A stretch of DNA of 64,000 nucleotides. It comes from Eledone cirrhosa. Taxonomy: Eukaryota. Location: assembly GCA_964016885.1 (NCBI GenBank), contig OZ024757.1, forward strand, positions 38,068,001 through 38,132,000, given 5' to 3'. The notes beneath the pieces were generated by a model. It was not told where the DNA came from, ran no database searches, and was given only the letters and a program-made list of their open reading frames with translations. A program made the translations under genes and the position numbers. Shown piece after piece: positions 17,229 through 33,940 of this stretch (positions are counted from its first letter, which is position 1; each line of letters starts with the position of its first letter).

Positions 17229-17339
17229 TATATGTGTGTGTATATGTATATATAAACATGCATATATATATATATATATATAAATAGTGGTAGGTAATAT
17301 CCGTAGTGGTAAAGCACTCAGTCCATGTGACGAGTTAGG

Positions 17340-17489
17340 TAGAAGTGGTTACACAACAGGTAGTTCACCATGATGTCCATTACGAGCTGAGGATCCGCTA
17401 AGGGAAAACTATTGTTCTCGGTATGGTGAACTAACTGTTGTTTAACCACTTCTATATATATTGGCAACATGACCCTCACAAAGTATGAC
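17340..17489 (+). mobile_element. family D element end: inverted repeat of about 32 bp (17340-17454) enclosing a hammerhead-like motif (17383-17420), then terminus TTGGCAACATGACCCTCACAAAGTATGACA
   Basis: terminus is the reverse complement of TGTTATGCTTTGGGAGGGTCATGTTGCCAA at 33883 and 58737; motif CGAG CTGAGGA TCCGCTAAGG GAAAAC TATT GTT CTCG. Confidence 0.65.
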
Positions 17490-17531
17490 AATATATATAT
17501 ATATCTATATATATGCATATAGATATATATA

Positions 17532-28794: not shown

Positions 28795-29273
28795 AAAACC
28801 CATTATATTTAAAATGTTCTGAACTTGGTGTAAACTTGAACACAGATGTTCACCTGTCTTTTGCCTATGTAACAAAAAATAATTTTTGTCGACAAATCTT
28901 TTTCTTTTCCCCTCCATTCATCTTATTTACATGAAACATTCTACTAAACACATTACTACATATTTTTCATTCCTGTCTCTTGAACGTGATTCATGGCGGA
29001 ATAGTCTGTCTGATACACATCATGAGTCTGTGTTTTTTTTTTTCCAATAGCAAATTTAAATTCTTATCACAGTATTTATAGAATTGTGTCAAAAATGTTT
29101 GATGTCCTAACTGATAACAAATGGGGTTAATATTAGTCATAAGAATTACAAGAGGATTTTCTGTTGATGATGATAAATGGAAATGGTATGGACACGCACG
29201 CACGCACGCACGCACGCACGCACATATCATTTTGCGAGGTTTTTGATATAAAATTGTGTGTCGAAACAAATAT

Positions 29274-29724
29274 TGTTATACTTGGGGAGAGTCGTATTTG
29301 TGTAATATTGCCACAATTAATAACAGAACACACTCACTGTTTGGTTGGTGTTCGCTTTTCGCTTCTGTGTCTTTTATATCGGTTAATTTAATTCATTCGG
29401 TCCTCAATGTTGCCATTGACTGGCCAAATAAAAATAAAGATGGCGTAGAAAATACAATTCAACGGGAGGAAACAATAGGACCACTGACGATGTTGCAGAT
29501 GTGCAACGAAAGAAATTTGATAAACTATATATATGTGTTTGTGTCTATATTGTATCTGTATTTTTGACCGTTGGTCAGTCAATGGCAACATTGAGGACCG
29601 AATAAATTAAATTAACCGATATAAAAGACACAGAAGCGAAAAGCGAAAACCAACCAAACAGTAAGTGTGTTCTGTTATTAAATCTGGCAATATTACACAG
29701 ATATGACCCTCCCAAAGTATAACA
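29274..29724. mobile_element. family D foldback element: imperfect inverted arms of about 155 bp, TGT...ACA termini, ATAT on both flanks
   Basis: 29274-29428 is the reverse complement of about 29571-29724; terminus shared with 17489, 33883 and 58737. Confidence 0.9.
29480..29521 (+). ncRNA. hammerhead-like motif in the spacer of the foldback element
   Basis: ACCA CTGACGA T GTTGCA-GATG-TGCAAC GAAA GAAA TT TGAT; 6-bp stem II, one extra nucleotide after A9, imperfect stems I and III. Confidence 0.7.
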
Positions 29725-30020
29725 ATATATATATATAGATATATAAGCGCCGAAACATCTTGAACTCGGTTTTACAGCGGATGAAGGATTTCTTTTCTTC
29801 TCTTGTTTCGTCCATACTACCATCTTAAACTTTGTTTACAGTAACCACGCAGCTTCTTTCGTTTCTTATAATTTCGTATATATCTACAAATATAATTTCA
29901 GCGAGATCGTATTTCGACGGGGGCCAAAAACAAAACAAAAGGCAATCTTAGAGATACCCGGCAAGCGCTCAATGGACTAAAAGAAGACCAGAGCAATTAA
30001 CACACTTTATAAAAGCCAGA

Positions 30021-30199
30021 TATTGGCAGCATCGGTAGAGAGTGGGACGCCATGCTTTCCAGCATAGTTACGTCCCTTTACGGCCTGAGTTCAAATCCCG
30101 CCGAGGTTCACTTTGCCTTTCATCCGTACGAGGTCGATAAAATAAAATACCAGTAATGTACTGTGTACTTGCTGGCCTTGTGCCAAAAGTAGAAACAGT
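30021..30199 (+). mobile_element. SINE family A copy
   Basis: family A head, body and tail. Confidence 0.9.
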
Positions 30200-33787: not shown

Positions 33788-33882
33788 TATATATATAGAT
33801 ATAGATATAGATAGATATAGATAGATGAGATTCTACAGGACTAGAACTGTTTCATTCTTTAGAATAACGTATATATATATAT

Positions 33883-33940
33883 TGTTATGCTTTGGGAGGG
33901 TCATGTTGCCAATAAGAAACACACATTCAGAAACGAAATA
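33883..33940 (+). mobile_element. family D mini-copy, an internal deletion derivative of 58737-58998
   Basis: TGTTATGCTTTGGGAGGGTCATGTTGCCAATAAGAAACACAC joined to ATTCAGAAACGAAATA. Confidence 0.85.

What the first reader, a model, noticed from the sequence alone, without database searches (positions are those of the whole stretch)
29274..29724. MITE-like foldback element with TGT...ACA ends carrying a hammerhead in its spacer (family D)
Seen: arms of about 155 bp, ATAT flanks and a hammerhead-like motif at 29480-29521. The same terminus occurs at 17489, 33883 and 58737, always beside (TA)n. In the 17489 and 58737 copies a hammerhead motif also lies inside and reads toward that terminus. TGT/ACA ends with a 4-bp duplication would suggest a Ginger-type DNA transposon, while the ribozyme suggests a Penelope 3' end copied in inverted orientation. 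It is either a retro-derived element mimicking a MITE or a hybrid ribozyme-bearing TIR element. Caveat: ATAT is self-complementary and may not be a true target duplication.
Basis: partly seen in the sequence, partly recalled or inferred. Interest (0 to 1): 0.75.

Follow-up and report, generated by a model that had tools for sequence, protein, structure and literature searches.

The report
Head-to-head Penelope retrotransposon ends
This hairpin is two cut-short ends of a very common Penelope-type jumping gene joined back to back, one still carrying a hammerhead-ribozyme-shaped motif, and was likely pasted in once by that element's own enzymes; it is an ordinary, already described layout and not a DNA-transposon hybrid.

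Summary
The 155-bp arms (144 of 155 bases complementary) and the hammerhead motif are real; the boundaries are not. The left arm runs about 45 bp past 29274, so ATAT is element sequence, not a target duplication. Longer copies lead upstream into one ORF with reverse transcriptase, a CX4CxxC linker and a GIY-YIG endonuclease: a Penelope-like element (PLE) of Neptune/Nematis type. The exact end word occurs 10,175 times: 6,083 stop at ATAT plus (TA)n, 4,092 continue into the tail. Inverted pairs span 100-3,763 bp, and 25 of 25 in an unselected 68-Mb stretch join one short end to one tailed end. Inverted 5'-truncated arms, a one-sided tail, a pLTR hammerhead and (TA)n targeting are published PLE features (PMC8557442, PMC3846280, PMC4209133). 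Ginger, MITE and Gypsy-LTR readings fail. The ends at 33883 and 58737 belong to a sister PLE family; the hammerhead near 17489 belongs to a third family, not to that terminus. The scan noted this layout before on other DNA, also in this genome.

The parts
29226..29273 (-). Tail of the left arm (+1 to about +48 past the ACA end); reads as codons 8-23 of the PLE ORF on the minus strand; the ATAT 'TSD' is its first four bases
   Evidence: ref to +44 at 29230; translation TTLPKYNNICFDTQFYIKNLAK; tail runs on into the ORF in L005 and L016
29274..29428 (-). Left arm: inverted, 5'-truncated pLTR copy, cut downstream of the hammerhead (so without it); start codon reads ACG
29429..29431 (.). Inversion junction with about 3 bases that fit neither arm cleanly; differs from the nearest similar junction (L016)
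29432..29728 (+). Right arm: direct 5'-truncated pLTR copy (ref -291..+4), 96% to L005, ending at the short end point before (TA)n
29480..29521 (+). Minimal type I hammerhead motif: stem I ACCA/TGAT, CTGACGA, extra U, 6-bp stem II, GAAA, predicted cleavage after 29517; base 29515 is A where most copies have C, which breaks the stem III G-C pair
   Evidence: definition from PMC4209133
29703..29728 (+). First codons of the PLE ORF inside the pLTR end (MTLPKYNN); this is the conserved 'terminus'
29729..29745 (.). (TA)-rich flank, likely the insertion target
   Evidence: 83 of 104 family ends are followed by at least two TA units
58733..58998 (-). Sister family B copy: 5'-truncated pLTR with hammerhead (core at 58910-58882), short end at 58733, and an inverted remnant of B's tail end at its 5' junction
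33879..33940 (-). Sister family B stub: 46 bp of the end plus an inverted remnant of B's tail end
17469..17496 (+). About 30-bp end fragment of family B type, separate from the hammerhead upstream
17282..17461 (+). Family C mini foldback with its own hammerhead (about 17383-17424); a different, likely Hydra-type PLE

Best explanation
The element is two 5'-truncated ends (pseudo-LTRs) of a high-copy Penelope-like retrotransposon joined head to head, likely laid down in one insertion at a TA-rich site by the element's own reverse transcriptase and GIY-YIG endonuclease. Shown: the parent ORF, the two arms, the discrete end points (+4, +47 to +53, +61 to +63), variable 5' cuts, and one short plus one tailed end per inverted insertion. 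Inferred: the endonuclease nicks both strands at (TA)n; reverse transcription starts inside the RNA at two nearby sites in the ORF start, one site per strand; both cDNAs stop early and are joined at their 5'-cut ends. The hammerhead is the normal pLTR motif, kept in the longer arm only because that arm was cut further upstream. This copy would be inert: it codes for 8 to 23 codons, and its hammerhead has lost the stem III G-C pair.
For: Parent: upstream of the right arm, natural copies hold an ORF of up to 767 aa (L035) with RT motifs, then CX4CxxC, then GIY-YIG. Pfam RVT_1 at E 1e-5 to 4e-4, below cut-off, in 3 of 3; GIY-YIG in 8 of 53 aligned relatives; model pLDDT 81.7, residues 383-482 match I-TevI GIY-YIG at Z 10.5, rmsd 2.1, 88 aligned. 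Copies: 38 of the 40 best places match only one arm plus the 'spacer'. Of 107 arms reaching the end, 65 stop at -3..+13, 39 at +44..+63, 3 run on into the ORF; 5' ends range from -23 to -1546. 20 of 30 copies picked by the last 125 bp have an adjacent inverted partner; 16 of 17 pairs with both ends seen are short + tail (p 5e-5). Unselected: 25 of 25 head-to-head pairs in C1:0-67.8 Mb are short + tail, spans 100-3,763 bp (23 of 23 after collapsing one tandem cluster, p 8e-8). Hammerhead core kept in 70 of 87 arms that span it; three pairs change on both sides between families A and B. Sister family B (46-62% amino-acid identity) has the same two end points. Literature.
Against: The partner's own GIY-YIG region gets no Pfam hit (0 of 3 pieces), and the telomerase-core matches of the RT part are in the noise band (Z 6.1-6.3). 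Rfam does not recognise the hammerhead, its fold is not unusually stable (z -1.4), stem I has a C-A mismatch in family A, and the covariation rests on two families only. One of 17 pairs has tails on both arms (L057), and 10 of 30 copies show no inverted partner. The two arms differ by 7%, as much as unrelated copies do, which fits age or two template RNAs equally. Loci were top-scoring hits, not a random sample, except. No tree against named PLE clades was built. The priming order is inferred from DNA alone.
Confidence: 0.95

Rival explanations
1. Non-autonomous Ginger2-type DNA transposon (MITE) with 155-bp TIRs and a 4-bp TSD that captured a hammerhead.
For: Ends fit TGTNR; Ginger2 has 50-180-bp TIRs, 4-bp TSDs and prefers RTATAY targets (PMC2836005, passages).
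Against: The left arm continues 45 bp beyond the supposed TIR; 4,092 of 10,175 exact ends continue the same way; 38 of 40 best copies have one arm only; pair spans vary 100-3,763 bp; the partner codes RT + GIY-YIG, with no integrase family among the Pfam hits.
Confidence: 0.01
2. A PLE-derived foldback that now spreads as a unit (non-autonomous, retrozyme-like mini element).
For: Many family members are short; 13 of 30 have 5' ends between -282 and -335; inverted structures are frequent.
Against: No second copy with this junction among the 40 best hits to the whole element; the closest (L016) differs at the junction; all 17 pairs have different arm lengths; the window copy is not in a tandem array.
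Confidence: 0.03
3. The inversion arises by self-priming or fold-back of one cDNA (or an antisense template), not by priming of both target strands.
For: Arkhipova et al. 2013 favour self-priming from palindromic junctions (PMC3846280, passages); several junctions here are perfect or near-perfect palindromes (L004, L007; L154/L155, 61 bp). This changes the mechanism, not the identity.
Against: Simple fold-back copying should give the same end on both arms, yet 25 of 25 and 16 of 17 pairs have different ends; the window junction is not a palindrome (arms start at about -155 and -291). A fold-back that later resolves at the second site remains possible.
Confidence: 0.3
4. The terminus is the LTR end of a Gypsy element.
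For: TGT...ACA is the usual LTR end.
Against: Upstream lies a GIY-YIG domain and the end is the start of the ORF; 5' ends are ragged.
Confidence: 0.005

Closest known systems
Insertion units of C-terminal-endonuclease Penelope-like elements, Neptune/Nematis type (Craig et al. 2021, PMC8557442; Arkhipova et al. 2013, PMC3846280)
   Same: RT followed by CX2-5CxxC linker and GIY-YIG with CCHH; heavy 5' truncation; partial tandems; inverted 5'-truncated copy; tail at one end; pLTR holding the first codons of the ORF; (TA)n targets; Asn-rich stretch in the ORF.
   Different: Tail is 47-62 bp with more than one stop, against the 30-40 bp reported; DKG motif reads DKSG; long insert between RT motifs A and B; this copy is only the two arms, with no ORF body. 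Clade not placed by tree.
[quoted passage not shown]
   Same: CUGANGA and GAAA core, extra base before stem II, G10.1-C11.1, long stem II, short stem I, almost no stem III.
   Different: Loop III is not palindromic; family A stem I has a mismatch; this copy has lost the stem III G-C pair. No activity tested.
Poseidon element PAc of Anolis in vitro (Frangieh et al. 2024, PMC11167929)
   Same: Two adjacent internal start sites of reverse transcription inside the ORF start define the tail; AT-rich cleavage; both strands cut and extended.
   Different: Other clade; start sites 111-118 nt into the ORF there, about 27 and 70-85 nt here; that work does not count end types in inverted pairs in the parts read.
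Ginger2/Tdd DNA transposons (Bao et al. 2010, PMC2836005)
   Same: TGTNR-like end, AT-rich target, inverted arms of similar length.
   Different: No fixed TIRs, no 4-bp TSD, no DDE integrase.

Membership tests
EN+ Penelope-like elements | One ORF with RT and C-terminal GIY-YIG endonuclease in the autonomous partner | tested here: met
EN+ Penelope-like elements | 5' truncation with fixed 3' end points | tested here: met
EN+ Penelope-like elements | pLTR and partial tandems: the end runs on into the ORF start | tested here: met
   L005, L016, L044
EN+ Penelope-like elements | Inverted 5'-truncated copy and one-sided tail | tested here: met
EN+ Penelope-like elements | Hammerhead motif in the pLTR | tested here: met
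   70 of 87 arms keep the core; covariation with family B; Rfam blank
EN+ Penelope-like elements | RT groups with telomerase RTs | tested here: inconclusive
   telomerase cores at Z 6.1-6.3 only; no tree
Neptune/Nematis clades | CX2-5CxxC linker before GIY-YIG, and CCHH motif | tested here: met
   CTNRKCIIC in L033/L035; C369, C372, C391, H434, H439 invariant in 53 sequences; definition
Neptune/Nematis clades | Placement by RT phylogeny with named references | not tested
   no reference set of named PLEs was held; paper supplement searched for two motifs only, without a usable answer
Naiad/Chlamys | N-terminal endonuclease | tested here: not met
   EN is C-terminal
Ginger2 / MITE | Fixed-length TIRs at both ends | tested here: not met
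Ginger2 / MITE | 4-bp target-site duplication | tested here: not met
   ATAT is element +1..+4
Ginger2 / MITE | DDE integrase partner sharing the ends | tested here: not met
   copies sharing the end code RT + GIY-YIG; the genome was not searched for Ginger elements as such
Non-LTR retrozymes | Head-to-tail tandem units each with a type I hammerhead | tested here: not met
   single head-to-head unit in the window; definition
Active hammerhead ribozyme | Self-cleavage | not testable with these tools
   no RNA data; the junction-based test was inconclusive

The most novel reading that the evidence does not exclude
In this family an inverted insertion almost always uses both internal priming sites, one per target strand (25 of 25 unselected and 16 of 17 selected pairs are short + tail). 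The tail would then be an obligate mark of two-strand priming by the RT-endonuclease complex, not an optional extension, and 10,000 ends in one genome offer a direct count to test how Penelope elements finish integration.
Probability: 0.55. Interest if true: 0.4.

Novelty: new member of a known kind. Interest (0 to 1): 0.15.

Why it matters
As a locus it matters little: a dead stub of a family with at least 10,175 ends in this genome. It is a clean warning that PLE inversions mimic MITEs, down to TGT/ACA ends and a false 4-bp duplication. The one point of wider use is the near-strict pairing of a short end with a tailed end, which constrains the still open steps of PLE integration; the one-sided tail itself is in print.

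Tried and rejected
1) Hammerhead-cleaved RNA as template in vivo. One copy (L065) starts exactly at the predicted cleavage site. A pattern for junctions there gave 26 matches; of 20 fetched, 10 were a subfamily variant, 1 a deletion, 9 arms in 8 insertions true junctions. A wider pattern (82 matches, all listed) showed by eye about 26 junctions at offsets 0 to -3 against about 11 at -4 to -12. But a control word 27 bases upstream (211 matches, 100 listed) showed by eye about 14 junctions at its offsets 0 to -3 and about a dozen at -6/-7, a similar or higher density after rough scaling. So no enrichment is shown. In some searches only one of the three filter letters excluded the natural base, so many intact copies passed; the downstream control (322 matches, 100 listed) was swamped by TA-run length variants. 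Counts are by eye, not scripted. 2) Rfam: nothing at gathering score, four chance hits at E up to 10. 3) repeat finder on the whole window was swamped by (TA)n. 4) Single-sequence fold of the EN domain failed (pLDDT 36.8); Foldseek on the better model gave no hit at E 0.001 or less, with I-TevI at rank 4. 5) Sequence search of solved structures gave only weak RT hits. 7) Cryptic inverted remnants at 5' junctions of apparently single copies: none of 11 or more bases beyond those already counted, so two-strand priming is not visible in every insertion. 8) One search was a mis-set alignment and is not used; searches had script faults (TA run in the reference; no de-duplication) and were redone; the hammerhead count failed and was redone. 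9) Literature: one search for Penelope + octopus + Neptune gave one paper, describing Naiads in Octopus; a search for PLE inversions taken for MITEs listed nothing specific (listing only). Repbase and Dfam could not be searched, so the family may already be catalogued.

Full report
Observation. The region 29274-29724 folds back on itself: 29274-29428 and 29570-29724 are complementary at 144 of 155 positions. ATAT lies on both sides, and CTGACGA...GAAA lies at 29484-29511. A 26-28-bp relative of the end occurs at 17469, 33877 and 58731. Rfam reports no family in the window at gathering score and four chance hits here at E up to 10.

Copies. The 451 bp were searched against the window's genome (3.0 Gb; 40 of 2,662 candidates scored). 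Of the 40 best places one is the window, one (L016) matches bases 1-309 and 38 match only from about base 159 to the end, that is the 'spacer' plus the right arm, at 94-97%. The typical copy therefore has one arm. Upstream of base 159 many copies share further sequence that leads into an ORF. A second search with that ORF part gave copies with open frames up to 767 aa (L035). Pfam finds RVT_1 below cut-off in 3 of 3 and nothing in 3 of 3 isolated linker or EN pieces. A protein search gave 82 relatives at E 1e-20 or better; the only one with an organism name is an Octopus vulgaris predicted protein at 67% identity, so the host is likely a cephalopod (inference). In 53 aligned sequences the RT YxDD, the linker cysteines C369 and C372, Y387, C391, Y403, G405, R414, H418, H434 and H439 are invariant; 8 of 53 hit GIY-YIG and 5 of 53 RVT_1 at E up to 0.01. 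The nearest named Atlas clusters carry GIY-YIG in 15-18% of members. A model from that alignment (pLDDT 81.7) matches the I-TevI GIY-YIG domain best (Z 10.5, rmsd 2.1, 88 residues), then T4 EndoII and UvrC; telomerase cores match the RT part weakly (Z 6.1-6.3). Domain order and the CX4CxxC linker fit the Neptune/Nematis type as defined in PMC8557442 (sections 6 and 11 and passages read); no tree was built.

True boundaries. With natural copy L005 as axis (0 = the ACA), the right arm is 29432-29728 (-291 to +4, 96.0%) and the left arm reaches 29230 (+44, 90.7%). The left arm thus passes the supposed end, and ATAT is the element's +1 to +4. In L005, L016 and L044 the extension runs on for hundreds of bases into an ORF start; in L005 the frame opens at an ATG 22 bases inside the end (MILPKYNNICFDTRF...). 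The 'terminus' and tail are the first codons of the ORF, which explains why families share them. PMC3846280 (passages) describes the same: a pLTR with the first 12 codons, a 31-bp tail optionally on one of the inverted pLTRs, TSDs of 8-10 bp or none.

End and pair statistics. Over loci L001-L090, de-duplicated by genome place, 153 arms were found; 107 reach the end: 65 stop at -3 to +13 (52 at +4), 39 at +44 to +63, 3 run on; 83 of the 104 that stop are followed by at least two TA units; 5' ends run from -23 to -1546. Of 30 loci picked only by the last 125 bp, 20 have an adjacent inverted partner. Of 32 head-to-head pairs, 17 show both outer ends: 16 are short + tail, 1 tail + tail (p 5e-5 under independence). 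These loci are top hits, not random. An unselected check: exact 31-base words count 4,092 tailed and 6,083 short ends genome-wide (lower bounds). Among the listed places in the first 67.8 Mb of C1 (77 tailed, 100 short; 23 listed tailed rows beyond that range were left out), all 25 outward-facing pairs within 5 kb are short + tail, spans 100-3,763 bp; 23 of 23 after collapsing one tandem cluster (p 8e-8).

Hammerhead. The motif has the features of the minimal PLE hammerhead in PMC4209133 (parts 1-2 of 4 read): extra base before stem II, G10.1-C11.1, 6-bp stem II, short stem I, vestigial stem III. Of 87 family arms that span it (distinct by sequence), 70 keep CUGANGA and GAAA, 68 also the cleavage dinucleotide, 57 the stem III G-C pair. 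Between this family and sister family B two stem II pairs and one stem I pair change on both sides (6 sequences, two families). Folding alone recovers stem II only (z -1.4). The window copy has A for C at 29515. That paper also reports pairs of such motifs 100-700 bp apart on opposite strands as truncated PLEs, and low activity in vitro.

The other three sites. 58737 and 33883 are family B: 10 of 25 B loci carry RT-EN sequence 46-62% identical to family A protein, 0 of 20 family C loci do. B also ends at +4 or about +62, and both window copies carry an inverted remnant of B's tail end at their 5' junction. At 17489 the hammerhead belongs to family C: other copies match query bases 4-177 or parts of it and never join the terminus. 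One of 8 further C loci (L136) holds a GIY-YIG frame with a CxCX5C linker, the Hydra-clade signature. C also forms variable inversions.

Mechanism. Shown in vitro for an anole PLE (PMC11167929, parts 1-2 of 4 read): AT-rich DNA is cut on both strands, both are extended, reverse transcription starts at two adjacent sites inside the ORF start that bound the tail, and hammerhead cleavage is not needed. Applied here by inference: one strand was primed at the +4 site and copied 291 bases, the other at the +48 site and copied about 155 bases past the end point, and the two 5'-cut ends were joined at 29428-29432. The rival is fold-back self-priming, which some palindromic junctions support but which does not by itself explain unlike ends. 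A test for templates starting at the hammerhead cleavage site showed no enrichment over a control site (see Tried and rejected).

Ginger. It fails on fixed TIRs, on the TSD and on the partner enzyme.

Novelty. Every structural feature is published for PLEs. The family may or may not be catalogued: Repbase and Dfam could not be searched, and one paper search for Penelope + octopus + Neptune returned only the Naiad paper, whose supplement was cut when stored. Earlier notes of this scan reached the same class for similar foldbacks, two of them in this genome; none lies near this window. Verdict: real feature, new member of a known kind, interest 0.15.

Noticed in passing
window 17282-17461; L136 (G000:C4:272523500-272528000): Family C: a separate high-copy mini foldback with a hammerhead whose loop III is palindromic (CAATTG in most copies; damaged in the window). 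One locus carries a GIY-YIG frame with a CxCX5C linker, so likely a Hydra-clade PLE.
   Followed up: partly
L061-L090: 13 of 30 copies have 5' ends between -282 and -335, an A/T-rich stretch; this may mark the pLTR transcription start or only a microhomology hot spot.
   Followed up: no
L087:1175-1192 and 1671-1685: A short + tail inverted pair flanked by the same 12-14 base AT-rich word on both sides, a likely true target duplication.
   Followed up: partly
L144-L162 (10 of 20 loci): A subfamily of family A differs in hammerhead stem III (GAAAGATT.A in place of GAAAGAACTT).
   Followed up: no
G000:C4:279661907-279661958; C6:91389894-91389951; C478:393-450: Three inverted insertions in which both arms begin within a few bases of the predicted hammerhead cleavage site; a control site also shows such a two-arm case, so no weight is put on it.
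   Followed up: partly
G000:C1:42149510-42150393 and C1:34853592-34854882: Small tandem arrays of the PLE end with periods of about 290 and 315 bp.
   Followed up: no
L077, L093, L103, L105, L109, L115, L127, L133: Further unrelated hammerhead-like cores lie within a few hundred bases of these insertions, pointing to many more such families nested in the same TA runs.
   Followed up: no
window 30026-30195: A SINE-like repeat, also present in many fetched loci; resembles octopus tRNA-derived SINEs (recalled, not tested).
   Followed up: no
   Followed up: no
L047:1-250; L005 and L016 ORF start: The family's ORF holds an asparagine-rich stretch before the RT, as reported for rotifer PLEs.
   Followed up: no
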